This document shows, one piece after another, positions 26,754 to 63,336 of a DNA stretch of 64,000 nucleotides. Under the pieces are notes generated by a model. The model searched no databases and was not told the DNA's origin. It saw only the letters and a program-made list of their open reading frames with translations. A program made the translations under genes and the position numbers. Position 1 is the first letter of the stretch. Every line of letters starts with the position of its first letter. The DNA is from an uncultured Chloroflexia bacterium (GTDB lineage Bacteria; Chloroflexota; UBA6077; JACCZL01), in the NCBI GenBank assembly GCA_963765765.1, contig CAVXYC010000001.1, forward strand, positions 128,001-192,000, read 5' to 3'.

Positions 26754-26781
26754 AGTTCCGATAACGCCCATTATCGGACCC
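26754..26781. repeat. dif-like symmetric recombination site
   Basis: AGTTCCGATAA-CGCCCA-TTATCGGACCC (11-6-11). Confidence 0.65.
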
Positions 26782-27107
26782 GCCCTTCTGGTTAGACCCA
26801 ACCGGGGATTGTCGGGAATCACCAACGGTCCGGCGTGTTTCTGGTCGTTTCAGACGCCGAGCTCCTCGTCCGTAAGATGCGCGGCAGGGAAAAAGAGCGG
26901 CTGGCCGAAGCGATCGACTCCAAACTGGCCGATGGCTTGCTGTGCCCTCATGTCGCGGCGCGTGGCGAGCATCTCCTTGGGCAGGATCCCTACGGTCGTT
27001 GGTTCGCGCGGCATTCATCGTGCACTTTGAGAACACTGGCGCACCCTTGCATCACGCCGGGTTTGATGCGCCGACGAAATTACTAAGAGGGTAAGTGGAG
27101 GTATCTC

Positions 27108-27596
27108 ATGGCGATGAACATGCTCCAGCAGCTTCTGGGCGGCGGCGAACAGCGGCAGCAGTACGAAGACTTCACACGGCGATATGACCAGGGCGCCCCC
27201 TGGGACGGCATCTCGGACCAGGAAGCACTGGACCGCTATCAGCAGGTGGCGCCCCAGCTTCCTCCGGCGATGTACCAACAGTCGGCTCAGGAAGCCTTCT
27301 CGCGGTTGAGTCCACAGGAGCGCATGCAGCTTGGTCAGTACTTGCAGCAGCAGGCGCGGCAACAGAACGTCCAGGTAGCCGATTTCAACCAGGACGGCAT
27401 AGATGACCGCTTCCAGGATCCGGCCTATCTCGCGCAGGTGACCGGTCGTATGGATCAGCAGCAGCCAGGATTGCTCGGCCAACTGCTTGGAGGCGGCGGA
27501 AGCGGAGGGCAAAGCATGCTCGCGAATCCAATCGCCAAAGCTGCACTGGGTGGTATCGCCGCCATGGCCGTCAAGAACATGATGGGTGGACGATAA
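27108..27596 (+). CDS. Gln-rich hypothetical protein
   Basis: GGAGGT RBS, coherent 162-aa ORF. Confidence 0.8.
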   Translation: MAMNMLQQLLGGGEQRQQYEDFTRRYDQGAPWDGISDQEALDRYQQVAPQLPPAMYQQSAQEAFSRLSPQERMQLGQYLQQQARQQNVQVADFNQDGIDDRFQDPAYLAQVTGRMDQQQPGLLGQLLGGGGSGGQSMLANPIAKAALGGIAAMAVKNMMGGR

Positions 27597-27612
27597 GGAG
27601 GAAGGAGTCACC

Positions 27613-27825
27613 ATGGCTGATATCACCAAGTACGTTGACAAATCCCACGAGCAGAAGGACTTTGCGGAGCTGGCGGATCTGCCAATTGACGCCCTTCAAG
27701 GAGTGAGCAAAGCAGATGCTGAGGCAATCCAGAAGGCCTTCAATGTCAAATCGATCCGCCAGCTCGCCGAGCACAAATTCATCCGAGCAGCTCAGGCGCT
27801 CACCTTCCTGGCCGGAGCCAAGTAG
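27613..27825 (+). CDS. Small conserved hypothetical protein (HhH-like)
   Basis: AAGGAG RBS; LPIDALQGVSKADAE motif. Confidence 0.78.
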   Translation: MADITKYVDKSHEQKDFAELADLPIDALQGVSKADAEAIQKAFNVKSIRQLAEHKFIRAAQALTFLAGAK

Positions 27826-27988
27826 GACTCAGGCGGTCTTTTCGCAGAGGCAAGACACTCGAACGCTAGTGTGAGCATCTGCTAGGCCTGGCTAATAGAA
27901 GGTGGTTCTGACACGGTCTCGAAATTCCGCACGTCTCCTAATGGACATCAGCGTGTTTCCGCCAATCCCGGTTCCGTAGCATTCGCGG

Positions 27989-29236
27989 GTGAGGCTCTTC
28001 ATCAACGCTACGTCATCCCGCACGGGCGGCGGGGTGGCGCACCTGACGTGGCTACTGCACGCCTTGGCGAAGATTGAGTCAGAGCTCGAGATCGTTGTGC
28101 TCACGACCCAGACACCACCGGTCGGACTTCGAGGATTGCCGGTGCGATATCAGGTGCGGCCGCATCCGGCCGATACGTGGCCGCTGCCTCGACGGCTTGT
28201 TTGGGAGGAGACTCGACTTCCGAAGATGATCGAGCGGTGGGGTGCGGACGTGTATCTGTCATTCGGAAGCTTCGGTCTGCTCCGCTGCCCATGCCGCCAG
28301 GTCATGATCTGCGCGCAACCGCTCTACTTCTCTGACAGGTATTACCGAGAGTTCGCGTCCAAGAACCGACTCCTTCGTCTTGAGGAGCTTGGCCGGCGTG
28401 CATTGTTGAAAGCTACCGCTCGGCGGGCGGATCGGATTCTCACCCAGACGGAGGCGATGCGCCAGCAGATCGTAGTCCAGCTCGGTGTCCAGTCCGAGCG
28501 CATCAGCGTGATTCCGCATGGAATTCATGATTCATTTTTTGGTCGGGAGAGCGTGGCACGGTCGGGCAAGATGCCCGACACCACCGACAATGCTGGGCCC
28601 ACACTGGTGTCGGGCATCTTGCCCGACCGTGCCACGCCTGCCTCGGCGAACCATCGGTCTACCGTCCTCTACGTCTCCGTTCACCAGGTCCACAAGGATT
28701 TCGACACGCTGGTCGGCGCGGCGGCATTGCTGCGGGATCGAGGACGGTCCGATGTGCAATTCGCGTTCACCGGCAGCCCGAACGACAACCAGTTTTCGCG
28801 AGCCACGGCTGGGCTCGTGCATGAGCTTAGGCTTGAGGAAGCGGTACACTTCGTTGGCCTCGTGCCCAATGATCAGATCCACTCCCTGTATCGCTCGGCA
28901 GACGTCTTTGCCTTCCCATCCTGGGCTGAAACATTTGGCATTCCATTGGTTGAGGCAATGGCCAGCGGGCTCCCGATTGTCGCGGCGGATATCGCGGTGA
29001 ATCGCGAAGTCGCGGCCGACGCCGCCGTGTACCACGCAGTCTCGGACCCGGATTCGCTCGCTGCACAGATCTCACGAGTGCTTGACGAGCCCGATCTGCG
29101 GAGGACAATTGACCGAGGCAGGTCGAGACAGAAGCCAGCAATTCACCTGGGAACGAGCCGCGCGGCAGACGCTGGCCGCGATAGAGGCAACCGCTCGACG
29201 ATGAGCAACCGCGCACCGAACAACTTCCACCTGTGA
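27989..29236 (+). CDS. Glycosyltransferase family 4 (GT-B); C-terminus likely frameshifted
   Basis: HKDFDTL, FAFPSWAETFGIPLVEAMASGLP. Confidence 0.9.
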   Translation: MRLFINATSSRTGGGVAHLTWLLHALAKIESELEIVVLTTQTPPVGLRGLPVRYQVRPHPADTWPLPRRLVWEETRLPKMIERWGADVYLSFGSFGLLRCPCRQVMICAQPLYFSDRYYREFASKNRLLRLEELGRRALLKATARRADRILTQTEAMRQQIVVQLGVQSERISVIPHGIHDSFFGRESVARSGKMPDTTDNAGPTLVSGILPDRATPASANHRSTVLYVSVHQVHKDFDTLVGAAALLRDRGRSDVQFAFTGSPNDNQFSRATAGLVHELRLEEAVHFVGLVPNDQIHSLYRSADVFAFPSWAETFGIPLVEAMASGLPIVAADIAVNREVAADAAVYHAVSDPDSLAAQISRVLDEPDLRRTIDRGRSRQKPAIHLGTSRAADAGRDRGNRSTMSNRAPNNFHL

Positions 29237-29249
29237 GCATCCACCACGC

Positions 29250-31439
29250 ATGAAACAAGTCACCCAGACCTATCGATCCGGCGAAACACGCGTTGAGGAC
29301 GTGCCCGTACCGCTTTGCCCCGAAGGCGGGGTGCTGGTAGCCAACGCTTTTTCGCTCATCAGCGCCGGGACAGAGCGTACGGTGGTGGAGACGGCCAGCG
29401 AGAGCCTGATCGGCAAGGCCCGCCGACGGCCGGACCTGGTCCGTCAGGTTCTGGACAGGGCTCGCAAGGAAGGCATCGCGCCCACGATCCAGGCAGTGCG
29501 CTCGCGCCTGGATACACCGATCCCGCTGGGCTATAGCTGCGCCGGGACGGTCATTGAAGTCGGCGAAGGCGTGGATGATCTCTCGGTGGGGGATCGAGTT
29601 GCTTGCGCTGGCGCGGGCCATGCGAACCACGCCGAGATCGTGGCCGTGCCCCGGAACCTATGCGTGCGCATCCCCGACGAGGTTGGTCTGGATGACGCCG
29701 CGTTTGTCACAGTCGGTGCCATTGCCCTCCAGGGGCTTCGCGTGGCTGATGTGAAGCTGGGCGAGCGCGTAGTAGTCATCGGGCTCGGCCTCGTTGGTCA
29801 GCTCGCGGTGCAGCTTCTCAACGCCGCTGGCTGCAATGTATTCGGCATCGATCTCGATCCCACCAAAGTGGCCATCGCTCATGAGCACGGCGCCGTGGCG
29901 GGCGCTCCGCGAGAGATGCCAAACCTGGACGACGCGATTCTCGAGTTCACCGGCGGCTACGGCGCGGACGCGGTGATCATCACGGCTGGCACATCGAGTA
30001 ACGATCCCATCGAGCTGGCTGCACATATTTCGCGAGACAAGGGGCGTGTGGTTGTGGTGGGCGCCGTGGGGATGAACGTGCCGAGGCCGCCCTTCTATGA
30101 AAAAGAGCTGGACCTGCGGCTTTCCCGCTCGTACGGACCTGGCCGCTACGATCCTGAGTACGAGGAGCACGGGGTGGACTACCCCATTGGCTACGTTCGC
30201 TGGACCGAGGGACGCAATATGGAGGCGTTTCTCGAAGCAGTGGGCCGTCGGCGGATAAAGACGTCGTCGCTTGTGACACACCGCTTCAGCATCGACGATG
30301 CCAATGACGCCTACGACGTGCTGAGCGGAAAGCGTCCGGAGCCTTCGCTGGCAATCCTCTTATCGTACCCACGCGAGCCGATCTTAGAGCGACGGGTAGC
30401 GGTGGCGAGTGTAAAGACGACGACGCCGTCCAGCGCCGTCGGCATCGGATTCATAGGCGCCGGCAACTTCTCACGCGCAGTCCTGTTCCCAGCGCTCAAG
30501 TCCATACCGGACATCAACCTGGTGGGTGTGGCATCGAATACGGGACTGAGTGCTCGCTCAGCCGCCCAGCAGTTCGGCTTTCACTCCGCCACCAGCGATT
30601 ACCGCCAGCTGCTGGACGATGAGCGTGTCACCGCCGTTGTCATAGCGACGAGGCACGATCTCCACGCGCGCATGGCCATCGAGGCTCTGGATGCGGGAAA
30701 AAGCGTCTTCCTGGAGAAACCGCTGGCGCTCAACCTGGACCAGCTGCGGGCCGTCCTCGCGGCCGATGCCCGCTCGCCGGGGTTGCTGATGGTGGGCTTC
30801 AATCGTCGCTTTGCCCCGTCGATTCAGCGCTTCCGCGAGTTCTTTGGTCGCCGCTCCAGTCCGCTGACCATTGAGTACAGGGTCAATGCCGGACCATTGC
30901 CGCGCAATCATTGGCTCAACGATCCGACCCAGGGGGGCGGTCGAATCATCGGTGAGGTCTGCCACTTTGTGGACACGGTGACCTACCTGGCAGGCTCATC
31001 GCTGGAGCGTATCTACGCGGAGCCACTGGGCGGCGAGCGAGGACCATCGGTACAGAGTGCTCTTGTGAGCCTGCGATATGGCGATGGCTCAGTAGGGTCT
31101 GTCATCTACGCTGCGGAGGGCGATCGAAGTTTTGCCAAAGAGCGCATGGAAGTGATCGGCGCTGGCGCGGTGGCCATCCTGGACGACTTTCGATCTTGGC
31201 AGATCAGTCGAGGAGGCAAGCGTCAACGGGCTGGCGGAGGGCTCCTCGGATCGCAGGACAAGGGTCATGCGGCGGAGCTGGCATCATTTGTACGCGCGGT
31301 TCGTCAAGGCGGACCATGTCCCATTCCGGTGCATGAATCCGCGCTCACCACGCTGGCAACGTTCAAGATCGTGGAGTCGCTCACATTGGGGCGTCCGTTT
31401 GAGCTGAATCCCAGCGACCTCGTGCCCGCCTACGCATGA
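29250..31439 (+). CDS. Bi-domain oxidoreductase (Zn-type dehydrogenase plus Gfo/Idh/MocA)
   Basis: SLISAGTE, GLGLVG, SRSYGPGRYD, GFIGAGNF, EKPLA, VGFNRRF, GEVCHFVD. Confidence 0.92.
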   Translation: MKQVTQTYRSGETRVEDVPVPLCPEGGVLVANAFSLISAGTERTVVETASESLIGKARRRPDLVRQVLDRARKEGIAPTIQAVRSRLDTPIPLGYSCAGTVIEVGEGVDDLSVGDRVACAGAGHANHAEIVAVPRNLCVRIPDEVGLDDAAFVTVGAIALQGLRVADVKLGERVVVIGLGLVGQLAVQLLNAAGCNVFGIDLDPTKVAIAHEHGAVAGAPREMPNLDDAILEFTGGYGADAVIITAGTSSNDPIELAAHISRDKGRVVVVGAVGMNVPRPPFYEKELDLRLSRSYGPGRYDPEYEEHGVDYPIGYVRWTEGRNMEAFLEAVGRRRIKTSSLVTHRFSIDDANDAYDVLSGKRPEPSLAILLSYPREPILERRVAVASVKTTTPSSAVGIGFIGAGNFSRAVLFPALKSIPDINLVGVASNTGLSARSAAQQFGFHSATSDYRQLLDDERVTAVVIATRHDLHARMAIEALDAGKSVFLEKPLALNLDQLRAVLAADARSPGLLMVGFNRRFAPSIQRFREFFGRRSSPLTIEYRVNAGPLPRNHWLNDPTQGGGRIIGEVCHFVDTVTYLAGSSLERIYAEPLGGERGPSVQSALVSLRYGDGSVGSVIYAAEGDRSFAKERMEVIGAGAVAILDDFRSWQISRGGKRQRAGGGLLGSQDKGHAAELASFVRAVRQGGPCPIPVHESALTTLATFKIVESLTLGRPFELNPSDLVPAYA

Positions 31440-33486
31440 GACCCAAGCAGATAGGGCGCTACATCCGAACCGTTCAGCATCTGACGCCGTCGCAGATCGC
31501 GCACCGAGCGCGCCTGCTCGCATTGCGCACGAGCTACTGCCGTCTTCCGCGGTTGACCAGAGCGCGCTATCGGTGGATGGCCGAGGAGTGTCCCGCCACA
31601 TGGTCCGACTGGAAGCTCCTCCCGGGCACAGACGACATCGATCCTGCTTCGGTGACGGAAGCGATTGAGGATGCGCGGAGCATCGCCGCGGGAACGTACC
31701 GGTTTATCAATCGAACCGCGCAGCTTGGACCACGGCCCGCCTGGCGTGATCATGGCCAATCGCAGCTCTGGAGTTACCATCTCCATTACTTCGACTACTT
31801 GCTCTCATTGGGCATCTGGTGGCGGGTGGAGCAAGCTTCAGACGCGCTCGAGACGGCGGCACGCTTGATCGCTGACTGGATCGAGCGAAATGCACCCGCA
31901 CTGGGCGACGGCTGGCATCCGTATCCCGTGGCTGCCAGGCTGAGCAACTGGCTTCAGGGGACTGAGCTGTTCGGGACAGCGTTGCGGAGCCATCCGCTTG
32001 TTGAGCCGCTGCTGCTACGGTCAGTGACTGAGCAGGTGCTGTTCCTTGAACAGAACATCGAATTTGATGTTCTAGGCAACCACTTACTGAAGAACCTGCG
32101 AGCGCTCGTGCATTGCGGCCTAGCCCTCGATCATCCGGAGAGCCAGCGCTGGCGGCACCAGGGCGCACTCTGGACGTTCGATCAGGTTCGGCGCCAGATC
32201 CTCCCCGATGGCGGGCACTACGAGCGCAGCCCTATGTATCAGATCCAGGTCTTCTGGGACCTCCTCGATATCCTGTCGCAGCTGCAGAACGTGGGCATCT
32301 CCGTTCCATCGGACGTCACAGCTCGACTTCAAGGCAATGCTGAATTGGATCGCAGCTATGCGCCATCCAGACGGAGATATTCCGCTGTTCAATGATGCAG
32401 TGCTGGGGGTGGTGGGACCGCCAGACGATGCGCTGGCGGCGGGGGCGAGGTTCTTCGGGGAACCCCATGAGCTTCTCAATTGGCGCGCCCTTGCGCTCCT
32501 GGGCAAGCTCCCTCGCCCCTTGGGCGCGGGTTGGGGTGAGGGTAGACCGATGTCGTCGATCTCGAGTCCCTCACCCCGCCCTCGCCACAAGGGGCGGAGG
32601 GGGCCGCCGTGTCGCTGACGGCTCCAGCTGACATCGCCCTCCCAGACTCCGGCTACTACGTCTTCAGTGGCCCCAATATCTGGCTCGTCGCTGACGCGGG
32701 CGATCCTTGTCCGGATGAGCTGCCGGCGCATGCGCACGCGGACGCGCTTTCGTTTGAGCTGTCGGTCCGCGGACAGAGGATGATCGTGGACGGCGGTGTG
32801 TTCGAATACCAGGCCGGGATGTGGCGGGACTTTATGCGCGGCACGGCCGCTCACAACACGGTCATGGTCGACGGGCAGGATCAGTCAGAGGTCTGGGGCA
32901 GCTTCAGAGTAGGGCGGCGAGCTCGTGTGCATGCCCGATATTGGGCTCAGCACGATGGGGTGCGCGTGCTGGAAGCCGAGCACGATGGCTATCAGGAAAG
33001 CCTGGGAGTTCGACATCGACGCTGGATCGCTCGGATGGAGCAGCGCTTTTTCATTATCTCGGACTTGCTGGAAGGCTCAGGTGAACACGAAGCGCGCGAG
33101 CTTTATCCATCTCCATCCGGATGCCAAGGTGGGCGATGCGTCGCTCTCCGACGACGCACGCCTGATCGGAGCGGCAACGGCGAGGCGGGATTGCTGATCG
33201 CTCCGTTCGGATTCGACGAGCTCGATCACTATGTCGGATGTCTCAGCTCACCCAGGGCGTGGTACGCGCAGGAGCTCGGGCGGAGGTTGCCATCCACAGA
33301 GATCTCGCTTCTGATGCACGGAGTCATTCCACGAATCTCAGGCTACCTGATCCTGCTGGATACACCTACGTCGGTGAGCATCTCGAGCGGCGTCAGCGAC
33401 CCAATGGTGCGTCGATCTGCGGTTTGACGACGCAAGCATTCCAGGTTCATGCCACCGCGGCGGGAGTCCGCGTAGTCCGTCGGTGA
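31436..33486 (+). CDS. Heparinase II/III family protein (several frameshifts)
   Basis: LWSYHLHYFDY, GNHLLKN, PDGGHYERSPMY, HPDGDIPLFND, AHAHADALSFEL, AHNTV. Confidence 0.88.
32508..32602. repeat. Intragenic REP-like inverted repeat (CCCTCACCCC family)
   Basis: CCCTCGCCCCTTGGGCGCGGGTTGGGGTGAGGG ... CCCTCACCCCGCCCTCGCCACAAGGGGCGGAGGGG. Confidence 0.7.
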
Positions 33487-35215: not shown

Positions 35216-35240
35216 ACACCGGCGAAATTGATCTCTAACA

Positions 35241-35348
35241 CCGACAGAGCCGCATCCCGTAAGGGTGCGGTTCCCTGGCGAGCACCTCCACACGGCGCCG
35301 GGTAATTCTCGAGAGGAACCGCACCCTTACGGGATGCGGCTCTGTCGG
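35241..35348. repeat. REP doublet: perfect 34-bp inverted repeat
   Basis: CCGACAGAGCCGCATCCCGTAAGGGTGCGGTTCC (35241-35274) and its exact reverse complement (35315-35348); each arm is itself a hairpin. Confidence 0.88.
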
Positions 35349-35356
35349 ATCTAGGG

Positions 35357-36239
35357 ATGATCCTCCTCACCGGCGCCACCGGGTTCCTCGGCGAGCGCGT
35401 CGCACGGTACCTCGTTGGGGCGGGGCATGAGGTGCGCTGCTTCGTACGGCCGACTAGCGATCGCTCCATGCTCGCAGGCCTGAATTTGGAATACGCCGTA
35501 GGCGATCTGACCGACGAAGCAGCGCTCGCCGAATCAATGAATGGCTGTGACACGTTGGTGAATGTCGCATCAATCGGCTTCGGGCATGGTCCGGGGATCG
35601 TTCGCGCAGCGGAGCGGGCCGGCGTTAAGCGGGCAATCTTTTTCAGCACTACGGCAATCTTTACAACGCTGCCAGCACAGACTAAAGCCGTGCGGCTGGA
35701 GGCCGAGCAGGCGATCATCAACAGCCCGCTCGATTGGACGATCTTGCGTCCGACAATGATCTACGGCTCGCCACGTGATCGAAATATGTGGCGCCTGATC
35801 AGCTATCTGAAGAGATATCCGTTGATTCCGGTACCAGGTAACGGCGAGAGTTTGCAGCAGCCGGTGTTCGTCGATGACCTGGCTCAGGCAACCGCCGCGG
35901 CATTAGCCACACAGGCGAGCATCGGAAAAGCGCTCAACCTGGCTGGATCTAAACCGCTCAGCTACAACGAGGTGATTGACACGGTGGCAGGCCTGTTGGG
36001 ACAGCGAGTGCTCAAACTACACGTTCCGCTGCGTGTTGCGCTGCTTGGACTTGGAGCGTACAATGCGCTCCGTCGCCGAGCCGCTATTACGATCAGAGCA
36101 GCTCCTCAGATTGAACGAAGACAAGGCGTTCAGTATCCACGAGGCCAGGGCCTGCATCGGGTATGAGCCGCTCACATTCAGTGAGGGCATATCGCGTGAG
36201 CTTCAGGCGCTCCGTCGCACGGCCAGTGTGGCCTCCTAG
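35357..36239 (+). CDS. NAD-dependent epimerase/dehydratase; frameshift near 36095
   Basis: TGATGFLG, WTILRPTMIYG, QPVFVDDLA. Confidence 0.88.
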
Positions 36240-37356: not shown

Positions 37357-38667
37357 ATGGCTAACCCCGTTCCATTAGCCTCCCCCACGGACTCACCGAC
37401 CTTGTGCGTGCTGGGTCTGGGTTACATTGGACTGCCAACAGCCAGCATGTTCGCCGTCTCCGGTCTGCAGGTCCTAGGGGTCGATGTAAACCCGCGCGTC
37501 GTGGAGTGGCTGCAGGCAGGGCGCATCCACATCGAGGAGCCAGATCTGCAGACGCTGGTTCAGGCGGCGGTAAATTCGGGACAGCTGCGAATCAGCCTTG
37601 AGGCAGAGCTTGCAGACGCATTCATCATCGCCGTACCAACGCCTATCACTGAGGACCACAAGGCCGACCTGACTTTCGTCAGAAGCGCGGCTGAAACGAT
37701 TCTCCCGCACCTGCGCGAGGGCAACCTGGTGGTTCTGGAATCAACGGTTCCGCCGCGCACTACGCGCGATGTGCTTCAGCCTATCCTGGAGCTATCCGGC
37801 CTGAAGGCCGGTGTGGATTTCGCACTGGCTCACTGTCCCGAGCGCGTACTCCCCGGCAAGATTCTGATCGAGCTCGTGGAGAACGATCGAATCATTGGTG
37901 GACTCACGCCCGGATGTGCTGACCGTGCGACGGAGCTGTACCGGACGTTCGTGCGCGGAGCGCTTCACCAGACCGACGCCACTACGGCCGAGATGGTGAA
38001 GGTCATGGAAAATACATGCCGCGACGTAAACATTGCACTGGCCAACCAGTTTGCCGTGCTGGCTGAAGGATTTGGCGTTGACGCTTGGGAAGCTATAGAT
38101 CTGGCTAACAAGCACCCCCGCGTCCAGGTTCTGCGACCAGGACCCGGGGTTGGCGGACACTGCATAGCGGTCGATCCCTGGTTCCTTATCGAGTCCGCTC
38201 CTGAGCAAGCGCCACTCATCATCGCTGCCCGTAAGCTCAATGAGTCGATGCCGGGCCACGTTGTCGACCTCATCAAGACTCAGTCCCCCAATCCCTCCGA
38301 TGGACCCATCGCGGCCTTCGGCCTGGCATACAAGGGCGATGTGGGTGACGTGCGGGAGAGTCCGTCTGTCGAGGTGGTTCTTGAAGCCATCCGCGCAGGG
38401 TATGAAGTGCGCGCGCACGATCCTCATGTCAAGCATGATGGCGGCGGAGACCTGCCTCCCTGCTTCGACCTCGCCGGGGCGCTTGACGGCGCCCAGGCCC
38501 TGGTGCTGTTGACAGATCACAGCGCATTCCGACGATTAGATCCTCACGAGGCCGGTGAGCTCATGCGCACGAGGCGGCTCATCGATACCCGCAACGCATT
38601 GAACCATGACGCCTGGCGCGCAGCCGGATTCCAGGTCACAACGCTGGGTCGCGGTGCACCGTGCTGA
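37357..38667 (+). CDS. wecC: UDP-N-acetyl-D-mannosamine dehydrogenase
   Basis: GLGYIGLP, AVPTP, ESTVPP, CPERVLPG, PGPGVGGHCIAVDP, DVRESP. Confidence 0.9.
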   Translation: MANPVPLASPTDSPTLCVLGLGYIGLPTASMFAVSGLQVLGVDVNPRVVEWLQAGRIHIEEPDLQTLVQAAVNSGQLRISLEAELADAFIIAVPTPITEDHKADLTFVRSAAETILPHLREGNLVVLESTVPPRTTRDVLQPILELSGLKAGVDFALAHCPERVLPGKILIELVENDRIIGGLTPGCADRATELYRTFVRGALHQTDATTAEMVKVMENTCRDVNIALANQFAVLAEGFGVDAWEAIDLANKHPRVQVLRPGPGVGGHCIAVDPWFLIESAPEQAPLIIAARKLNESMPGHVVDLIKTQSPNPSDGPIAAFGLAYKGDVGDVRESPSVEVVLEAIRAGYEVRAHDPHVKHDGGGDLPPCFDLAGALDGAQALVLLTDHSAFRRLDPHEAGELMRTRRLIDTRNALNHDAWRAAGFQVTTLGRGAPC

Positions 38668-39768
38668 CGGTACTGACCATCTTCGGCACGAGGCCCGAAG
38701 CCATCAAGCTCGCGCCCGTGGTATTGGAGCTGGCGAGATTTCCGTCCGAAGTCTGCTCCGTGGTGTGCATCACCGCGCAGCACCGCGACATGCTTGACCA
38801 GGTACTGCGTATCTTTGAGATCCAGCCGGACCTGGATCTCGACCTCATGACCGAGAACCAGACTCTTCCAGACCTAACTTCGGCAGCTCTTCTGGGCGTC
38901 ACGAGTGTGCTGGAGCAGGTTCAGCCAGACGTTGTGCTTGTCCAGGGAGATACGACGTCCGCGATGGCGGCCGGGCTGGCGGCGTTCTACCGGAAAATTC
39001 CCGTTGGGCATGTGGAAGCGGGACTTCGAACAGGCGATCGTTATCAGCCGTTTCCCGAGGAGATCAATCGGAAGCTGCTCAGCGCCATCGCCACCTACCA
39101 CTTCGCTCCTACAGACGTGGCTCGCGAGTCGCTCTTGCGCGAGGGCATCCCGAGCGATTCGGTGCTCATGACCGGGAAATACCGTGGTGGATGCGCTACA
39201 GACCATCGCCCGGAAGGGTGAAGCTCATAACGGATTGGCTGCACTCGGCGTTGAGCGGCGACTCATTCTTATGACGGCGCACAGACGTGAGAACTTTGGA
39301 GCGCCGCTGGAGAACATCTGCCGCGCCGTATTACGCTTGGTGGAGCAAAACCCCGACGTCGAAATAGCTTACCCGGTGCATCGCAACCCCAACGTACGGG
39401 AGACCGTGGAGCGTATGCTGAGCGGGCAGGAGCGGGTCCATCTCCTCCCGCCACTCGAGTATGACCAGTTCATTCATCTCCTCTCACGCTCCACGCTCGT
39501 GCTGACTGACTCTGGCGGACTGCAGGAAGAAGGCCCGGTGCTGGGCAAGCCAGTCCTGGTCATGAGGGAGATGACCGAACGGCCGGAGGGCGTCGCCGCG
39601 GGCTCGAATCGATTGGTGGGAACAGACGCCGACCCGATCGTCAGCGAGGCTGAGCGACTGCTGCACGATCCCATCGCGTATCAAGCCATGGCCCGCGCCT
39701 CAAATCCCTTCGGCGACGGACACGCCGCCGCGAGAATCGTGGAGTTTTTGAGGGACAGGCGACGATGA
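38661..39768 (+). CDS. wecB: UDP-N-acetylglucosamine 2-epimerase; frameshift near 39178
   Basis: FGTRPEAIK, QGDTT, HVEAGLR, PFPEE, TAHRREN, TDSGGLQEE, NPFGDG. Confidence 0.93.
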
Positions 39769-52239: not shown

Positions 52240-52267
52240 GTGAGCGCTAAGCCGGATTATCGAACGG
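52240..52267. repeat. dif-like site (degenerate), tandem with the IS-interrupted site
   Basis: GTGAGCGCTAA-GCCGGA-TTATCGAACGG. Confidence 0.45.
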
Positions 52268-52286
52268 GCAGTTCCTATAACCGGGG

Positions 52287-54031
52287 AGCCTGTTGAAAAA
52301 CGCGGGCATGGAGATCAAAAGCGCTGCCCTCGTCGGTGCGGCAGATCGTCTTCACGCGATGCTCAGACACGGGAAGGCGACCCTTGGAGTGGCTGGGGCG
52401 GTGGTCGGTGGGCGGACGGCCCCTCCGGCGCCCCACCCGGCCCTGGCCGCCGCCCCCAGCCAGCCCTTCGGAGCAGTCGCTTCAGGTTCTGGCCAGCCGC
52501 GACCACGAGCGCCTCGACGTGACCTGCCAGAGTCCGCGAAGCCGGAACGGCTCAGCCCGTGCCAGTCTTTGGCTTCGCCGAACAGCGGCTCAACCCAGAC
52601 CTTCCGCTTGGCCATGGCCTTCTCGTAGGCAGCCGTCTGGTGGTAGGCGTGCACACGCTCGAGGTACTCGGCGTACAAGGACCTCTGGACCTGGCGTCCC
52701 TGGCTGCCCTCGGTGCAGGCAGCCTTGAGCGGGCACGCCTGGCAGGTGGCGGCCTCAGCGCGGTAGACGACGACACCTTCGGTGTACTTGGCCGTCCGAC
52801 GTCGCAGCACCTGGCCTTCGGGGCAGCGGTACTCGTCGCGGTCCGAATCGTAGGTGAAGTGCGAGGCGCCATAGAACGGCGTCCGCTGGTCGAAGTCCGA
52901 CAGCGGAACGTAGGCGTAGATCTTCTGATCCTGGACCTCGACGATGTTCTCGACGGTCCCGTAGGTCGTGTCGCCGGTCACCTGGTCGGGGCGGATCCGC
53001 CAGCGGAAGCAGGCGCGCCAAAGCATGTCCAGGAATGGCTGGTTCTCCATCACGTCGGCCGGGGTCACCAGGACCTCGAGGATGATGCGGGCCTTGCCCC
53101 CATCAACGACGTAGTGGTCGTGGTACCCGAAGGAGAGTCCGCCTTTCTTGAGCGCCATCAGGGCGGCATCAGGATCGGTGGCGCTCGCCTCGAAATCAGA
53201 GCGGCGCCGATAGCCGTCTCGGATGATGGTCCGATCGGGTGCCCCGTTGCGGGCTAGCTAGTCGTGCCGCTCGCCATTGGTTTGAGCGAGCTGCTCTCGC
53301 TCGGCTTCCGTGATCGGGACCGGCAGGTCGATCGGCTGGCTCCCGTCTTCCTCCGGACTCGACTCATCGGGACCGTCACCGGTAAACAGCTCACCGAGGT
53401 GCGCCTCGACCGCAAAGCGCGGGGCGATCGAGTCAAGCGATGCATTACCCGGCACTTGCGTGGCATCGACGTACAGCTCTTTGCCCCAGACCAGCCCAGC
53501 CTCGCGGCACTGCTCGACGATCACTGCGAAGAAGCGGCGAAAGATGGCCAGGCCGTAGCGCTGTCGAATCCTGGAGAGGCTGGAGTGATCGGGCAGCGCC
53601 TCGTCCAAGGCGTACCCAAGGTACCAGCGGTGGGCGAGATGGAGGCTCGCGATCTCAATCAGGTGCCGCTCCGAGCGGATCCCCTCGAAGAACATGATCA
53701 ACTGGAGCTTGAAGAAGATGCTGGGGTCGATGCTCGGCCGCCCAGATCTCTTATACGTGCTACGGACCAGGTCGCGGACGAACGTCAGATCAAGCTCTGA
53801 CTCCAGAAGACGGTAGAAATGGTGAACGGGAACCAGCGCGTCCAGCGCTGCCAGCACCGGTTGGTCCACCCGGCGCACCTTGGCCGGGCCGAGCATGAAG
53901 AAAGAATCCAGTCTAGGGTCGGACGGCGGCCCCGACCGGCACGGGGCCGATCACGGCTCGCCACCCGGGCAATGATTTGCTTAGAACCGTACCAGCCGAC
54001 AGTGACGTGGCGTCGACTTTTTCAACAGGCT
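52287..54031 (-). mobile_element. IS1182-family insertion sequence
   Basis: Terminal IR AGCCTGTTGAAAAA / TTTTTCAACAGGCT (extends to 15 bp); flanking CGGGG direct repeats. Confidence 0.88.
52352..53896 (-). pseudogene. IS1182-family DDE transposase with in-frame TAG at 53258-53260 and frameshift near 52540
   Basis: GRPSIDP, GIRSER, PDHSSLSR, VDAT, TDPDA, GDTTYG, YRCPEG, VEPLFGEAK. Confidence 0.88.
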
Positions 54032-54051
54032 CGGGGGTTATCGGAACTTGG

Positions 54052-54089: not shown

Positions 54090-55088
54090 ATGGATCGGCC
54101 CACCCGTCGCGCATTCCTGCGAGGCACTCTGGCCGCGGCGGCGGCTGGCTTGCTGTCCGGCTGCGGGCTGGTAGCGCCACGGTCTCAGCAGGCAGTTCGG
54201 ACACCTCGCATCGGCTACCTGTGGTCCGGCGCACAGGAATGGGCCGACGCTTTCCGCGAGGGCCTGGCAGAGCTGGGTTACGTTGAGGGCAGCACGGTCA
54301 CCGTGGAGTGGCGACCGGCCGATGGACAGGTCGATCGCTTCCCCGGGCTGGCCGCCGAGTTCGTGAGCATGCCGGTCGACGTGATCGTGGCCTCCGGGAT
54401 CAGCCCTATCCGGGCCGCGATGCGCGCCACCAGCACCATCCCGATTGTGATGGTGCAGACGGCCGACCCGGTGGCGGACGGTTTTGTGGCCAGTCTGGCA
54501 CGGCCGGGAGGAAACATCACCGGACAGACCAGCATCGCCCGCGAGCTGATTGGCAAGCGGTTGGAAGTCCTGAGGCAGGCACTCCCGTCCGTGTCACGGG
54601 TGGGCGTTATCTGGAACCCCGACCCCGATATCAACCACGCCGGCCAGGTGCGGGATGCGGAGGCCACGGCCGGCGCACTGGGGATGACGCTGGTGTCGCT
54701 GGAGGCGCAGGAGACCGCCGCCATGGAGGGCGCATTCGAGCGAGCGGTGCATGAGCGGGTCGATGCGCTGACCCTGGTGGACAATGTCGTGCTGACGAGC
54801 AATCCGGCGCGTGTCGGCGGGCTGGCACTGGCGCATCGGTTGCCAATGACGTCGACCGGTCAATATGTGACGGCCGGCGGATTGATCGGCTACGGGCCAA
54901 ATCGTCCCGCCCAGGAGCGGCGCGCCGCCACCTACGTCGACAAGATCCTGAAGGGCGCCAATCCCGCGGAACTCCCCGTTGAGCGGCCGGAGAAATTTGA
55001 CCTGGTGATCAATCTCAAGACCGCGCAGGCGCTGGGTCTGACGATTCCACAGTCGGTCCTGGCCGAGGCGACCGAGATCATCCAGTAA
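54090..55088 (+). CDS. ABC_sub_bind-family substrate-binding lipoprotein
   Basis: RRAFL plus LSGC; PRIGYL, DPVADGFVASLARPGGNITG, LVINLKTAQALGLTIPQS. Confidence 0.93.
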   Translation: MDRPTRRAFLRGTLAAAAAGLLSGCGLVAPRSQQAVRTPRIGYLWSGAQEWADAFREGLAELGYVEGSTVTVEWRPADGQVDRFPGLAAEFVSMPVDVIVASGISPIRAAMRATSTIPIVMVQTADPVADGFVASLARPGGNITGQTSIARELIGKRLEVLRQALPSVSRVGVIWNPDPDINHAGQVRDAEATAGALGMTLVSLEAQETAAMEGAFERAVHERVDALTLVDNVVLTSNPARVGGLALAHRLPMTSTGQYVTAGGLIGYGPNRPAQERRAATYVDKILKGANPAELPVERPEKFDLVINLKTAQALGLTIPQSVLAEATEIIQ

Positions 55089-55138: not shown

Positions 55139-55166
55139 CGGTCCGATAATGGGGGTTATCGGCACC
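55139..55166. repeat. dif-like symmetric recombination site
   Basis: CGGTCCGATAA-TGGGGG-TTATCGGCACC. Confidence 0.65.
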
Positions 55167-55355
55167 TGTTTGAAAAGGCGGAGCGTGTCTCAGTGGAGCA
55201 GGTTGTCTACCGAATGACGTGACCCTGTGGGCGACGACCGGTGGCTGAACCAGGGTGGGCCGCTACTCACCCGGTTGGTGTCTTGGCACATCGCCAATTG
55301 AGTGCTAGATTGCGCCGGAGTGCGCGATGACGCGCCCGAAACGAGAGGGAGCGCC

Positions 55356-56025: not shown

Positions 56026-57158
56026 TTAGCCACCGAGTGCGGCTTCCATGCGGGTCGCGCTTTCTCGGCGAGCCTGTTCCAGAATGTGGCCGTAAATGTC
56101 CAGGGTCGTCTGACTGCGATCATGACCAAGCTGCTCCATAACCTCCCGCACGCTGGCGCCCATGGCGAACTGGAACGTGGCGCACGTGTGGCGCAGGTTG
56201 TGGAATGGAGTCCTCTGGATTCCCGCCTTCGCCAATGCGGCCTGAAAGCGGTGCGTCACGTTGGAGCGGTCCAATGGTGTGCCGGCCGCGGACGTGAAGA
56301 CGAGCCCAGCGGATTCCAGTGATCGGGTCGACCGGCCAAGAGATGGTCCTCCCTCTGCTTGGCTCGCTGCGCGTACAGGGCGTCCAACGCGGGTCCTGGC
56401 AGCGCCAGGTTTCGACGCGACCGGCGTGTTTTTGGTTCGACCAGTTGGTATTCCCCGCTGACCTTCTGAAGTTGCTTGCGTACGCGAAGCTCCTTCTGAT
56501 CCAGGTCCACATCTGCCCAACGAAGTCCTAGAACCTCCCCCTGGCGGAGTCCCAGGGCTAGCGCCACGGTGAACAACGCTTCGAGCGGATTCTGTTGGAT
56601 GGATTGCAGAAAAACTTTCGCTTCCTCGAGCGACAGAGGACGGCGCTCGACAGGCTCGTGCTTCGGCCCGTCGACAAGCGCAGCCACATTGCGTCCGACA
56701 ATTCCCCACTTCACCGCTCTACCGAGCGCGATACGTAGCACCGACAGAATGTATCGGACTGACGTGACGGACAGGCCCTCCGCCGACTTTGCCTTCAAGA
56801 GTCGCTGGATCGCCGACGGTTCCAGGCTTGAAAGGCGCGCACGACCAAGGCTCGGGCTGATGTGTAGCTTTACGGTGGCCGCGTAGCTCTCGTAGGTGCG
56901 TGGCCGGACGGACGGTTTCACATGGTTCTCAAGCCAGTCTGTGAGGAATTGATCGAGAGTCAGTCGCTCTGGTGGGACAGGCAATCCCTTCTGCAGGTCG
57001 CGTTTCAATGTATTGAGCCGAGAAATCAGATCGCGTTGCTCGCGGGCATAGAACGACTTCGTCCGACCGTTCAAAAGGGATACCCGAGCTTCCCAACGTC
57101 CGTCGGGGCGAAGGCGAATCATGCCCTCATGATTTGCGCGTCGCTTCATACCCGCCAT
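56026..57158 (-). CDS. Tyrosine recombinase/integrase; frameshift near 56320
   Basis: RANHEGMIRLRPDGRWEA, GLRQGEVLGLRW, PKT, FHNLRHT, LGH, TLDIYGH. Confidence 0.93.
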
Positions 57159-58427: not shown

Positions 58428-58519
58428 GCTCGAGCCCCGCTTTCAGTCTGAGAAGATGGAGTCCTGGATCACGCGTGAGTGCGATTGCTCTAAAACCGGC
58501 GAGACGAAAGACTCTCACC

Positions 58520-58933: not shown

Positions 58934-59019
58934 TTGTCACACCACCTAACCCGTCTATCACCAGCAGCGGCCGCCGAGATGAGCGAAGGGAAGGTCGCTC
59001 GTAGGTCGGGTTCATGCGA

Positions 59020-59874: not shown

Positions 59875-59978
59875 GGTCAACTCCAAATGCGGTGGGTTGC
59901 TGCGCGTAGAGTAGCACCGATCAGGTGACCTGCGAACGACGAGAGCGCCGGCGTCTCCCGATCTTGACCGCGGTCGTC

Positions 59979-61183: not shown

Positions 61184-61626
61184 CCTTCACCCAGTGGACG
61201 TGTGGCGCGTCCTTCACATCGAAAAGCGCCGCGGCTCAGGGCCATCTCCCGAGCCCAACGCGTGCCCCACACGTAGCACCAGATACGCGACCTAGCGTAG
61301 TGCAGCCATGCGCACCTGTAAAGCTGTCCTAGGAAGTGTAAGTGTTCAGACTTGAGGGGATGAGTTTGTGACACGGCTGTGAGGTGCGGGCGAGTCACGC
61401 GGCCGTCACAGCCCGGTAGCGTGCGGCCATGATGCGCACGTGATCGACTTCACCGCTCATCCAGCAATTACGAGGCGAGGTGTGCGTAAGCAGGCCCTTC
61501 TGCTGGCGCGCGCCCCTGCAACAAGCCGTTTCGCCCAGCCGCGGTATCCGCAGCGGCCCGCCGGACCACCGAGACCTTCAAGCGTGCTGTGGCCGATCGC
61601 GACGTAGCGCTCGAGCCGCCTCATGG

Positions 61627-62499
61627 CTACTCGCAGAATCGTGGGACGCGGAAGACGAGCTCCTCGTCACCGATTTCGCGGCACAGGGTGTGGAGCTCGC
61701 TTCGCCGAGCACCTCGCCATTCGAGGTCCTCGAGGCTCTCGGCGAGCGGGACGTCGCGCCGGAGCGTCGCGAGCGTCTTATAGAGCGCCGCGTCGTCACG
61801 TCGCTCTCTCAAACTGGCAGCCAGCGCCGCGCCGCCTCGGACATTCACGTCCCATCGAGTCGGGTCGTCGGGGATGTCTTCGATCCGACCAAACCGACCG
61901 AGCACCGCGGACGCTGCTTTCTCGCCCCACCGCGGGATGCCGGGAAAGCCATCGGCCGAGTCGCCGACGAGAGCGAGCCAGTCCGGGATCGAACCCGGCG
62001 GCACACCGAACTTCTCGTTCACCTGCTTTTCGTCCATTAGGAGACGACGCATGCGATCGAAACGGACCACGCGCTGGTCGACGACGCACTGAGCAAGATC
62101 CTTGTCAGGGGTGCAGATCAGAATCTGTTCCACCTCGGGAATCGACGAGAAGCGCGCCGCGGCGGTGGCGAGAGCGTCGTCCGCTTCGAACTCGATCATT
62201 GACCACGTAGTGATTCCGAGTGCGCGCGACGCGCGTTCGGCGAGAGGAAATTGCGAGAGCAAGTCGTCCGGGATGCCCGCGCCGGTCTTGTACCCATCAA
62301 ACAGGTCGTTGCGGAACGACTCGATGACGTGGTCGAACGCGATGGCGACGTGACTGACTCCGTCCTCGCGCAGGAGCGAGAGCAGGGACCGAAGAATGCC
62401 GCGCGTCGCTCCTATTTCTCGATCGCCAACCTGGGCCTTGGGAGCTCCGAAGAAGGACCGAAACAACTCGTACGTGCCATCGACGAGATGGACCTTCAT
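61627..62499 (-). CDS. Stand-alone 5'-3' exonuclease / flap endonuclease
   Basis: HLVDGTYELFR, FRNDLFDGYK, EADD, DKDLAQ, LVGDSADGFPGI. Confidence 0.92.
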   Translation of the reverse strand: MKVHLVDGTYELFRSFFGAPKAQVGDREIGATRGILRSLLSLLREDGVSHVAIAFDHVIESFRNDLFDGYKTGAGIPDDLLSQFPLAERASRALGITTWSMIEFEADDALATAAARFSSIPEVEQILICTPDKDLAQCVVDQRVVRFDRMRRLLMDEKQVNEKFGVPPGSIPDWLALVGDSADGFPGIPRWGEKAASAVLGRFGRIEDIPDDPTRWDVNVRGGAALAASLRERRDDAALYKTLATLRRDVPLAESLEDLEWRGARRSELHTLCREIGDEELVFRVPRFCE

Positions 62500-62858
62500 C
62501 TGGTTGACTCGGTCAGCGTCTTCATGCCGAGATGAGCGTCCGCGATGCGCAACTCGTGCATCTGGTGCGCTTTCGGGGAAGGCGCGGCCACGAGATCCTG
62601 GTGCGTCCGGTGATCGTCGGCGGTGACTTGAATGCGGAATGATCTCGGCATACTGCGAGCATCCACCCCTCCGTCACTGGGTCACACCGATCGTTCTCGC
62701 CCGTACCAATGCAACCTTCCAGACCTCGTGTCACTGACTACCAGGCTGCGGATCAACGCTGGAGATGTTCGAGCCACTGCTCCCGCAGGATAACTGCGAC
62801 CCGTTTAGCAGTCGCCCCAATCCGACTGATTGAACGTGTAACTCACGGCCACAGCATA

Positions 62859-63119
62859 GACAGTGACGACGCCCATCTTAAACGGAATCCCTGCCCTCGG
62901 CTTATCACCGGGCAATCTCCGCATGCGGTCTCGCCAAAAGATGAACCAAGCGAACGGACGCCTTCAGGCCGCTCGGAAGGTCAGTGTGAAACGGAAAGGA
63001 ATGGAGGCGTTCGGCAACTCATTGTTATTGTTTTCCTAATAGTTATGCCGATGCATATTGCCCGGTGATAAACCGGCGGCACTCACTGAACTTCCATTCC
63101 GGGTAACCGTTTCGCTGTC
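62859..63119 (+). ncRNA. Candidate structured non-coding RNA (family unassigned)
   Basis: Nested stems 62899-62916/63057-63074, 62957-62966/63002-63011 and 62859-62866/63112-63119 within about 950 bp lacking a credible gene. Confidence 0.4.
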
Positions 63120-63210
63120 ATCACGCCGGGCCGACCCTCGTTCTCAGCTGGCGACCGAGCTTGGGATCAGACGGTGCGTCATTGTCAAGTCTGCAGGGGG
63201 GACCCAAATT

Positions 63211-63336
63211 GGTTCCGATAACCGTGTTCAAACTAACTCATCTGGGAACGTGACAATAGGAAACACGCTCGAGTGACCGTGGCAGCTGGTACTGGGAATC
63301 GGGGTTATCGGACCCTGTTTCAAAGCGCGGAGCGTG
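63211..63336. repeat. Two dif-like half-sites and a 36-bp repeat of 55152-55187
   Basis: GGTTCCGATAA at 63211; GGGGTTATCGGACCCTGTTTCAAAGCGCGGAGCGTG at 63301-63336 (31/36 identical to 55152-55187). Confidence 0.6.

What the first reader, a model, noticed from the sequence alone, without database searches (positions are those of the whole stretch)
26754..63336. Family of symmetric dif-like sites delimiting gene modules: candidate chromosomal Xer-type cassette system
Seen: intergenic 11-6-11 sites with TAA-N6-TTA cores at 26754-26781 (AGTTCCGATAA CGCCCA TTATCGGACCC), 52240-52267, 52270-52280/54038-54048 (split by the IS) and 55139-55166 (CGGTCCGATAA TGGGGG TTATCGGCACC), plus half-sites at 63211 and 63305. 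They sit at edges of accessory blocks. Established: XerCD dif sites have this geometry, and pdif sites flank mobile modules on Acinetobacter plasmids. Unusual here: both arms are CCGATAA-type, with no TTATGT XerD-type arm, and there are several copies in chromosome-like DNA. Inference: a single tyrosine recombinase captures or shuffles modules at these sites.
Basis: partly seen in the sequence, partly recalled or inferred. Interest (0 to 1): 0.82.

Follow-up and report, generated by a model that had tools for sequence, protein, structure and literature searches.

The report
Co-oriented dif-like palindromes bounding gene modules
An uncultured soil bacterium carries about 45 copies of a 28-base palindrome shaped like a chromosome-resolution (dif) site, lined up in the same direction between genes, which most likely marks where a Xer-type recombinase swaps gene modules, though this is not proven.

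Summary
The motif is real. Exact CCGATAA-N6-TTATCGG sites lie at window 26758 and 55143. A third site is split by an IS1182-type insertion sequence (52286-54032). The site at 52240 is degenerate, and 63211/63305 belong to a roughly 300-nt composite element.

Genome-wide, exact arms occur only with spacers of 5, 6 or 7 bases (2, 14 and 3 copies). A profile finds 33 strong and 46 total sites, 31 of the 33 strong ones intergenic. The spacer is conserved and asymmetric (TGGGGG), and one arm is better conserved than the other.

All 28 neighbouring site pairs in 11 clusters point the same way, whatever the gene strand. Sites separate single genes or operons. About half flank an expanded family of PF04392 binding-protein genes.

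Four 1.25-kb paralogous units become alike exactly inside the spacer. Two metagenome contigs of related strains lose synteny at sites. Three tyrosine-recombinase genes lie 0.15-1.3 kb from sites, and one is Xer-like.

Best reading (about 0.45): recombination sites of a Xer-family recombinase that build module arrays. It resembles Acinetobacter dif modules but has palindromic XerC-type arms and direct orientation.

Rivals are a REP-like hairpin, an operator, or IS-derived ends. No recombination product was seen.

The parts
26754..26781 (.). Full palindromic site AGTTCCGATAA-CGCCCA-TTATCGGACCC. The spacer is C-rich on the + strand, so it is in '-' orientation. It lies between convergent ORFs.
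52240..52267 (.). Degenerate site. The right arm TTATCGAAC is good; the left arm GCGCTAA is poor. It lies directly beside the split site.
52270..52285 (.). Left half of a site split by the IS (AGTTCCTATAACCGGG).
52286..54032 (-). IS1182/IS5-type insertion sequence. It has perfect 15-nt terminal repeats GAGCCTGTTGAAAAA. The transposase is in two ORFs (DUF772; DDE_Tnp_1_6). It is a single copy in the assembly.
54033..54048 (.). Right half of the split site (GGGGGTTATCGGAACT). With the left half it implies a 7-nt spacer and a GGG duplication.
54090..55088 (+). PF04392 ABC substrate-binding protein gene with a twin-arginine type N-terminus. It is one of 67 PF04392 matches in the genome.
55139..55166 (.). 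Full site CGGTCCGATAA-TGGGGG-TTATCGGCACC ('+' orientation), 50 nt after the binding-protein stop codon.
55148..55187 (+). 40-nt direct repeat (spacer end, right arm and leader CCTGTTTGAAAAGGCGGAGCGTG). It is 85% identical to 63297-63336. The two copies bracket an 8.1-kb segment that holds the integrase.
   Evidence: (family D2)
56026..57158 (-). Phage-type tyrosine integrase read in two frames (apparent frameshift between 56310 and 56438). It lies 0.9 kb from the 55139 site.
63040..63315 (+). Composite repeat of about 300 nt (9 copies in the genome). It contains conserved blocks, the wide palindrome GGTTCCGATAACC-N-CATCTGGGAAC (63211-63249), and a hybrid site CTGGGAA-TCGGGG-TTATCGGACCC (63292-63315).
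63297..63336 (+). Second copy of the 40-nt direct repeat. It starts a 1.25-kb site-to-site binding-protein unit that has three paralogous copies.
63454..64000 (+). Start of a second PF04392 binding-protein gene (it runs off the window).

Best explanation
The 28-bp element (c)GTTCCGATAA-TGGGGG-TTATCGGAAC(g) is most likely the core recombination site of a Xer-family tyrosine recombinase. Two recombinase monomers would bind the two CCGATAA-type arms, and strands would be exchanged across the 6-bp asymmetric spacer, which gives the site a direction. A circular DNA carrying one site that inserts at a resident site leaves the insert flanked by two sites in direct orientation. Repeated insertion would build the observed co-oriented arrays of single genes and operons. 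Many of these modules are copies of an expanded PF04392 binding-protein family.

Shown: the site anatomy, spacer constraint, co-orientation, module boundaries inside the spacer, strain differences at sites, and nearby recombinase genes.

Inferred: that a recombinase binds and cuts here, which recombinase it is, and whether the system is still active. The Xer-like gene at C30:93976-94931 is the best candidate. The host Xer at C29:41097 is an alternative.
For: (1) Geometry. Exact arms occur only with spacers of 5, 6 or 7 bases (2, 14 and 3 copies) and never with spacers 0-4 or 8-12. The inner arms ATAA/TTAT and the CCGATAA half equal the XerC side of the predicted actinobacterial dif site (PMC3025954).

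(2) Asymmetry. The spacer is conserved and asymmetric (T 21, then G 23, 20, 20, 21 and 18, each of 24). The right arm is better conserved than the left. The dif-module literature makes spacer identity the condition for crossover (PMC13141974 passages).

(3) Orientation. All 28 of 28 neighbouring site pairs in 11 multi-site clusters are co-oriented; with strong sites only it is 17 of 17. This holds although gene strands are mixed. Orientation agrees with the GC-skew sign in only 10 of 18 clusters.

(4) Modules. Sites separate unrelated single genes or operons. In the C23 array these include a binding-protein gene, phosphofructokinase and a SnoaL-like gene. In C7 there are methyltransferases and another binding-protein gene. 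One C27 site lies beside cytochrome bd genes (subunit II by Pfam). C7 also holds an arsenic-type cluster.

(5) Paralogues. Four 1.25-kb binding-protein units are 83-85% alike from the last Gs of the spacer onward. Their left arms and upstream DNA differ. Ends of paralogous matches fall within 10 bp of a site 34 times out of 721, against a random mean of 10.0 and a maximum of 20 in 1000 trials.

(6) Strains. Metagenome contig L045 joins homologues of C27:88.4-89.3 kb and C27:45.65-46.0 kb, which lie 42 kb apart in this genome. The join is one gene plus one site, and homology starts at the site. L048 shares a site plus the wide palindrome but has different genes beside it.

(7) Recombinases. Tyrosine-recombinase genes lie 0.15-1.3 kb from sites at C30, C1 and C20. 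The C30 gene scores best against the XerC, XerA and XerD models and keeps the R, K, HxxR, H and Y motifs. Close homologues were found in 2 of 38 genomes of the order. One is G029, which also holds several site-like palindromes: 8 matches (6 forward, 2 reverse; one palindromic place can count on both strands) against 1 for the reversed control.
Against: No excision circle, deletion or inversion junction was seen. The only read data available were short soil-metagenome contigs that do not bridge the sites.

All three site-proximal recombinase genes read as frameshifted or truncated in this assembly. This may be real decay or sequencing error.

No recombinase gene lies near 8 of the 11 multi-site clusters, for example C23, C7 and C27.

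About half of the strong sites adjoin one gene family, so co-duplication with that family explains part of the pattern.

Only binding-protein units show site-to-site homology. A duplicated AurF-like gene is not bounded by sites.

One G000/G001 synteny break is 1.2 kb from a site, and its partner has no site.

The same-genus genome G001 has the recombinase orthologue (87%) but no clear site family.

Spacers of 5 and 7 bases exist.
Confidence: 0.45

Rival explanations
1. REP/BIME-like extragenic palindrome. In this reading it is a species-specific hairpin-forming repeat at gene ends that stabilises or ends transcripts, or binds a nucleoid protein. It would have spread by an unknown route, with rearrangements and IS insertions occurring at it secondarily.
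For: 31 of 33 strong sites are intergenic, many lie 6-60 nt after a stop codon, and 11 of 33 lie between convergent genes. The family is expanded in one genome only. Sites are embedded in other conserved motifs, mosaic-like. Single-strand folding gives a hairpin (-5.8 and -7.0 kcal/mol, z -3.0 and -3.3). An IS of a family reported to target inverted-repeat structures sits in one site (PMC5678879). By my own reading of the sequences, several arm changes are C-to-T and would keep G-U pairs.
Against: Co-orientation of 28 of 28 neighbouring pairs regardless of gene strand is not expected for a hairpin element. The three Y1-transposase loci have no such palindromes beside them. Copy number is low (about 46) and strongly clustered. 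The hairpin is weak and lacks a T-run. The conserved 6-nt loop and the fixed spacer length are not explained.
Confidence: 0.25
2. Operator of a dimeric transcription factor that controls a subfamily of PF04392 binding-protein genes. The wide palindrome and the N6 palindrome would be two operators in a shared roughly 300-nt upstream region.
For: It is a palindrome with repeated half-sites in a conserved upstream region. A TTGTCA-type box lies before several binding-protein genes, and the leader CCTGTTTCAAAACGCGGAGCG follows the right arm.
Against: 11 of 33 strong sites lie between convergent genes, and many lie at 3' ends of unrelated genes. The binding-protein arrays of relatives, and several arrays in this genome, have no such palindrome. 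Co-orientation and strain breakpoints are not explained.
Confidence: 0.08
3. The half-site is the tip of the terminal inverted repeat of the IS1182-type element, and the palindromes are minimal end-to-end derivatives (tiny MITEs) or scars of that IS.
For: All three IS ends seen (both ends of the window IS and a solo end at C10:138640) have TTCC(G/T)ATAAC plus 4 nt directly outside GAGCCTGTTGAAAA. A soil contig of a related IS copy starts to match at 52272, which includes the half-site (record 13). The related IS in G007 has GGGTTATCAGGAACT 45 nt beyond its end. The binding-protein leader resembles the IS end.
Against: The IS is single-copy here while the sites number about 46. A 28-bp element with 6 bp between its ends is an unlikely transposase substrate (inference). 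The arrangement is equally explained by insertion into the spacer with a GGG duplication. That fits the reported preference of IS1272, an IS1182-family member, for inverted-repeat targets with 9-12-bp arms and 4-6-bp loops (PMC5678879).
Confidence: 0.1

Closest known systems
Acinetobacter dif modules (pdif sites on Rep_3 plasmids; chromosomal dif module islands)
   Same: Both have many 28-bp 11-6-11 dif-like sites away from the terminus that bound small gene modules arranged in linear multi-module arrays. Crossovers are centred on the spacer, and one arm is more variable than the other. Insertion sequences are found at fixed positions by the sites. Sources: PMC13141974 passages; PMC12907356 abstract; PMC10132070 abstract.
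   Different: Here both arms are of the XerC (CCGATAA) type, and no XerD-type arm exists in the assembly. Neighbouring sites are in direct, not alternating, orientation. The host is an uncultured soil bacterium with about 62% G+C. The modules carry no resistance genes, and about half carry one paralogous binding-protein family. No experimental recombination has been shown.
Integron cassette arrays (IntI, attI, attC)
   Same: Both have co-oriented arrays of mostly single-gene units, each followed by an imperfect palindrome close to the stop codon. One array starts next to a divergently placed Xer-related recombinase gene (C30). Array content is hypervariable between strains.
   Different: There is no integron integrase; the best TIGR02249 score is 49.5 bits against a cut-off of 265. 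The site is a 28-bp double-strand-type palindrome without the R''-L''/L'-R' layout or GTTRRRY core (layout and core recalled from knowledge). Gene strands are mixed. Arrays lie at 11 or more loci.
Single-recombinase Xer systems with near-palindromic dif sites (XerS/difSL, XerH/difH, archaeal XerA)
   Same: Both have a palindromic ATAA-N6-TTAT type core that one recombinase could serve. In this genome a recombinase gene lies next to a site (C30). XerS being genetically linked to its dif-like motif is stated in the abstract start of PMC2731167 (listing). The rest is recalled.
   Different: Those sites are single-copy and resolve chromosome dimers. Here there are about 46 copies in clusters.
REP/BIME elements with RAYT transposases
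   Same: Both are species-specific extragenic palindromes at gene ends with mosaic flanking motifs, and both are targets of insertion sequences.
   Different: There is no RAYT association. Copy number is low, clusters are strictly co-oriented, and the spacer is conserved.

Membership tests
Xer/dif-type core recombination site | Two roughly 11-bp arms around a 6-8-bp central region, with inner arm ends ATAA/TTAT | tested here: met
   Spacers of 5, 6 or 7 bases only (2, 14 and 3 copies), and consensus GTTCCGATAA-TGGGGG-TTATCGGAAC. Compared with dif sequences printed in PMC3025954.
Xer/dif-type core recombination site | Distinct XerC and XerD arms (XerD arm TTATGTnAA) | tested here: not met
   Both arms are CCGATAA-type. 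There is no ATAA-N6-TTATGT anywhere in the assembly.
Xer/dif-type core recombination site | Single copy at the replication terminus, resolving chromosome dimers | tested here: not met
   33 strong and 46 total sites in 18 places on 12 contigs.
Xer/dif-type core recombination site | Bound and cleaved by a Xer recombinase | not testable with these tools
   Only proximity is available: a Xer-like gene lies 150 nt from the site at C30:95081.
Acinetobacter-type dif modules | Modules bounded by dif-like sites, with the same module found in different contexts | tested here: met
   A site-to-site binding-protein unit occurs at C1:191292-192543, C23:452363-453595 and C23:457688-458933, and partly at C27:46161-47306, with differing flanks.
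Acinetobacter-type dif modules | Neighbouring sites alternate in orientation (C and D modules) | tested here: not met
   28 of 28 neighbouring pairs are co-oriented. The rule is taken from PMC13141974.
Acinetobacter-type dif modules | Crossover centred on the spacer between sites with (near-)identical spacers | tested here: inconclusive
   Homology of four units begins at the last Gs of the spacer. No recombinant junction was observed directly.
Integron | Integron integrase IntI | tested here: not met
   Best TIGR02249 score is 49.5 bits against a cut-off of 265.
Integron | Co-oriented array of cassettes, each ending in a recombination site | tested here: met
   The C23 array has 8 sites in 6.6 kb, and C7 has 4 sites in 5 kb, with one gene between most sites.
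Integron | attC layout (R''-L''...L'-R', core GTTRRRY) and cassette genes on one strand | tested here: not met
   The arms read GTTCCGA, not GTTRRRY (direct reading; the motif is recalled from knowledge). Gene strands are mixed.
REP elements with RAYT | RAYT (Y1 transposase) gene flanked by the repeats | tested here: not met
   Three PF01797 loci were found, and none has the palindrome within 1.5 kb.
REP elements with RAYT | Extragenic palindromes | tested here: met
   31 of 33 strong sites are intergenic by crude gene calls.
Transcription-factor operator | Position upstream of the controlled genes | tested here: not met
   11 of 33 strong sites lie between convergent genes, and many lie 6-60 nt after stop codons.
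IS1182/IS5-type insertion sequence (the element at 52286-54032) | DUF772 plus DDE_Tnp_1_6 transposase and terminal inverted repeats | tested here: met
   PF05598 at 6.6e-17 and PF13751 at 3.4e-13. Terminal repeats. The transposase is split into two ORFs.

The most novel reading that the evidence does not exclude
A chromosomal cassette platform run by a single Xer-family recombinase on palindromic XerC/XerC-type sites. Circular modules would be captured in one orientation at many loci. The main cargo would be an expanded, mosaic family of exported PF04392 binding proteins, so the system would diversify the cell's substrate-binding or surface repertoire. That would make it an integron-like function evolved independently from the dif/Xer machinery in an uncultured soil lineage.
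Probability: 0.25. Interest if true: 0.8.

Novelty: new variant of a known kind. Interest (0 to 1): 0.62.

Why it matters
dif-like module systems are so far documented almost only in Acinetobacter. There the sites have distinct XerC and XerD arms and alternate in orientation, and the way modules move is still unclear.

A second, unrelated lineage with about 46 sites would show that Xer-type sites have been recruited more than once as a general platform for gene shuffling. These sites have two XerC-type arms, a conserved directional spacer and strictly direct orientation.

It would also give a simpler one-arm-type substrate for testing how such modules move.

Finally, it bears on how large paralogous families of binding proteins expand and decay in soil bacteria.

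Tried and rejected
Public reads. The best runs held only 0.05-0.14 of the sampled words, and all were short contigs of soil metagenomes. No joint fell at a site, so nothing can be said about circles or inversions.

Replication-strand polarity as the cause of co-orientation. Orientation agrees with the GC-skew sign in only 10 of 18 clusters, so I rejected it.

An order-wide single-copy dif site of this sequence. The 12-base core was found in 2 of 38 other genomes only, so I rejected it.

Rfam and tRNA scans of the window found nothing.

A half-site before an RBS on contigs C4, C5 and C11 turned out to be the end of a coding frame (LFR-stop) on three near-identical contigs.

A second att-like repeat on the far side of the C20 and C30 recombinase genes was not found.

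The duplicated AurF-like gene (C7:41788 and C1:100769) is not site-bounded, and the C1:100996 match is probably chance.

The G002 palindrome lies between two IS elements beside an IS-truncated recombinase and is uninformative.

The array flanks of C23 and C7 lie on different contigs in the fragmented G001 assembly, so 'empty sites' could not be shown.

The 20-base site was sought in one genome per species. There were 8 records with one match each in unrelated taxa, and no second genome with a family.

Supplementary files of papers were not consulted.


Full report
OBSERVATION. The window is G000:C1:128001-192000.

Exact CCGATAA-N6-TTATCGG occurs at 26758-26777 and 55143-55162. With up to 3 mismatches there are 6 matches against 1.38 expected, and 0 of 100 shuffles reach 6. 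The 8-mer TCCGATAA occurs 8 times against 1.19 expected.

The 52240-52267 site has a good right arm and a degenerate left arm. The half-sites at 52270 and 54038 flank an insertion sequence. The half-site at 63211 is the left arm of a wider palindrome, and 63305 is the right arm of a hybrid site with a variant left arm.

THE FAMILY. In the 6.49-Mb, 33-contig genome, exact arms occur with spacers of 5, 6 or 7 bases only (2, 14 and 3 copies) and never with spacers 0-4 or 8-12.

A 22-base pattern with at most 1 mismatch finds 24 sites, against 0 for the reversed control. It finds 1 each in 2 of 30 relatives and none in the same-genus genome G001. A looser 12-base core finds 16 sites here and hits in 2 of 38 other genomes of the order.

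A profile built from 24 sites gives the consensus GTTCCGATAA-TGGGGG-TTATCGGAACG. The spacer is conserved and asymmetric, and the right arm is better conserved than the left. The profile finds 33 places at E below 0.01 and 46 at E below 0.5.

By crude gene calls, 31 of the 33 strong sites are intergenic. Of the 33 strong sites, 11 lie between convergent genes, and many lie 6-60 nt after a stop codon.

CONTEXT. The gene after the split site (54090-55088) and the gene starting at 63454 are PF04392 ABC substrate-binding proteins. The genome has 67 PF04392 matches, many of them fragments, often in tandem. Three relatives of the same family have 13-22 matches.

About half of the strong sites adjoin such genes. 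However, several binding-protein arrays here and those of relatives carry no such palindrome.

Other sites separate unrelated genes:
- phosphofructokinase, a SnoaL-like gene and small ORFs in an 8-site, 6.6-kb array on C23;
- methyltransferases and a binding-protein gene in a 4-site array on C7;
- an arsenic-type cluster;
- cytochrome bd genes (subunit II by Pfam) beside a C27 site.

In the window, the 25 kb between 26758 and 52270 is a polysaccharide-synthesis cluster.

THE IS. Positions 52286-54032 hold a DUF772 plus DDE_Tnp_1_6 transposase in two ORFs, with perfect 15-nt terminal repeats. It is single-copy here, and relatives occur in 4 of 38 other genomes of the order.

The flanks read TTCCTATAACCGGG | IS | GGGGGTTATCGGAAC. 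That is a site with a 7-nt spacer and a GGG duplication. Alternatively, the half-sites are the outer part of a 31-nt inverted repeat.

IS1272, an IS1182-family member, is reported to insert at inverted-repeat structures with 9-12-bp arms and 4-6-bp loops downstream of genes (PMC5678879; abstract, section 22 and passages read). IS of another family sit 5 bp from pdif sites in Acinetobacter (PMC10132070, abstract). I therefore read the IS as having landed in a site. The rival reading is kept.

WHAT SPEAKS FOR RECOMBINATION SITES. First, the geometry and the arms. The predicted actinobacterial dif site is CACGCCGATAA-TGCACA-TTATGTCAAGT (PMC3025954), so both arms here are of its XerC-side type. 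No TTATGT arm is present in the assembly.

Second, orientation. In all 11 clusters with two or more sites, every neighbouring pair points the same way. That is 28 of 28 pairs, or 17 of 17 with strong sites only. This holds although gene strands are mixed. Orientation matches the local GC-skew sign in only 10 of 18 places.

Third, boundaries. Four 1.25-kb binding-protein units (C1:191292-192543, which starts at window 63292; two on C23; one on C27) are 83-85% alike from the last Gs of the spacer and the right arm onward. Their left arms and upstream DNA differ. Ends of paralogous matches fall within 10 bp of a site 34 times out of 721, against a random mean of 10.0 and a maximum of 20.

Fourth, strains. 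Two metagenome contigs with the exact site come from relatives. L045 joins homologues of C27:88.4-89.3 kb and C27:45.65-46.0 kb through one acetyltransferase-like gene and one site. In this genome 42 kb with 7 co-oriented sites lie between them, and the homology starts at the site. L048 shares a site plus the wide palindrome but has other genes beside it.

Fifth, recombinases. A phage-type integrase lies 0.9 kb from the 55139 site, and its homologue on C20 lies 1.3 kb from a site. A Xer-like gene on C30 starts 150 nt from a site. The C30 protein keeps the catalytic R, K, HxxR, H and Y motifs, and differs from its G001 orthologue by one frameshift. Close homologues occur in 2 of 38 genomes of the order. 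These are G001 (87%) and G029 (69%). G029 also has several site-like palindromes: 8 matches (6 forward, 2 reverse; one palindromic place can count on both strands) against 1 for the reversed control.

WHAT SPEAKS AGAINST. No recombination product was seen, and the read data were uninformative.

All site-proximal recombinase genes read as broken. Many other genes are split too, for example the heparinase, the epimerase and the transposase. The contigs are long, so sequencing errors are possible but unproven.

Most clusters have no recombinase nearby. Only binding-protein units show site-to-site homology.

Against G001, the polysaccharide cluster is conserved. The left break is at about 27974, which is 1.2 kb from the site, and its partner near C1:214.4 kb has no site.

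G001 has the recombinase orthologue but only one degenerate site, 1.4 kb from that gene.

RIVALS. A REP-like hairpin fits the intergenic 3' positions and the species specificity. Folding gives weak hairpins. This reading does not explain co-orientation, and the Y1-transposase loci are unlinked.

An operator fits the conserved roughly 300-nt upstream composite with repeated half-sites. It does not fit sites between convergent genes.

IS-derived ends remain possible.

COMPARISON. The nearest known system is the Acinetobacter dif-module system, now also described on chromosomes (PMC12907356 abstract; PMC13141974 passages).

The shared features are multiple dif-like sites, modules in linear arrays and crossovers at the spacer. 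The differences are two XerC-type arms, direct rather than alternating orientation, a distant host, and cargo dominated by one paralogous family.

It is not an integron, since there is no IntI and no attC layout. It is not a dimer-resolution site either, because it has many copies.

VERDICT. The best reading is a Xer-type recombination-site family that builds co-oriented module arrays (confidence about 0.45). That would be a new variant of a known kind.

Noticed in passing
window 28551-28637: An 87-nt element made of two perfectly complementary 33-nt arms lies inside the open frame of a glycosyltransferase gene (27989-29236). Its 21-nt core has 6 copies in this genome and dozens in the same-genus genome G001, often at contig ends. 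It looks like a separate palindromic mobile repeat that may insert in frame.
   Followed up: partly
G000:C10:278147-278170, beside the recombinase gene at C10:277064-277972: A different dif-like sequence, GGTTACGATAA-TGCTAA-TTATATCTACC, lies about 175 nt upstream of a 372-aa tyrosine recombinase gene. It could be a recombinase/site pair or an attachment site.
   Followed up: no
window 31436-33427 and 38661-39768: The heparinase II/III-like gene is read as two ORFs (N-terminal and C-terminal domains). The UDP-GlcNAc 2-epimerase also looks split between a 186-aa Pfam-matched ORF and an overlapping adjacent ORF that I did not annotate. Together with the split transposase, integrases and many binding-protein fragments, this suggests either widespread decay or indel errors in the assembly.
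   Followed up: partly
window 35231-35358: A 44-nt inverted repeat (91% complementary, 40 nt apart) lies in the gap before the gene starting at 35357.
   Followed up: no
window 10265-10387: A perfect 29-nt inverted repeat with a 65-nt loop.
   Followed up: no
window 24023-24122: Three 27-nt tandem units (67-78% alike) lie within a minus-strand ORF region.
   Followed up: no
G000 contigs C4, C5 and C11: Three contigs share near-identical stretches, seen around C4:24546, C5:26178 and C11:72887. This fits strain mixture or collapsed repeats in this metagenome-type assembly (contamination estimate 6.85%).
   Followed up: no
G000:C30:95100-97550: The binding-protein genes here are a mosaic of pieces. 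Each piece is 84-97% alike to a different paralogue on C1, C17 and C27, which suggests recombination among family members.
   Followed up: partly
G000:C23:468615-469078: Two tandem copies of the roughly 240-nt upstream part of the composite repeat that precedes the site at window 63292.
   Followed up: partly
G000:C27:69048-69320: An N-terminal Xer-like domain fragment, with no catalytic domain found, lies inside the 42-kb stretch that is absent from the related strain contig L045.
   Followed up: no
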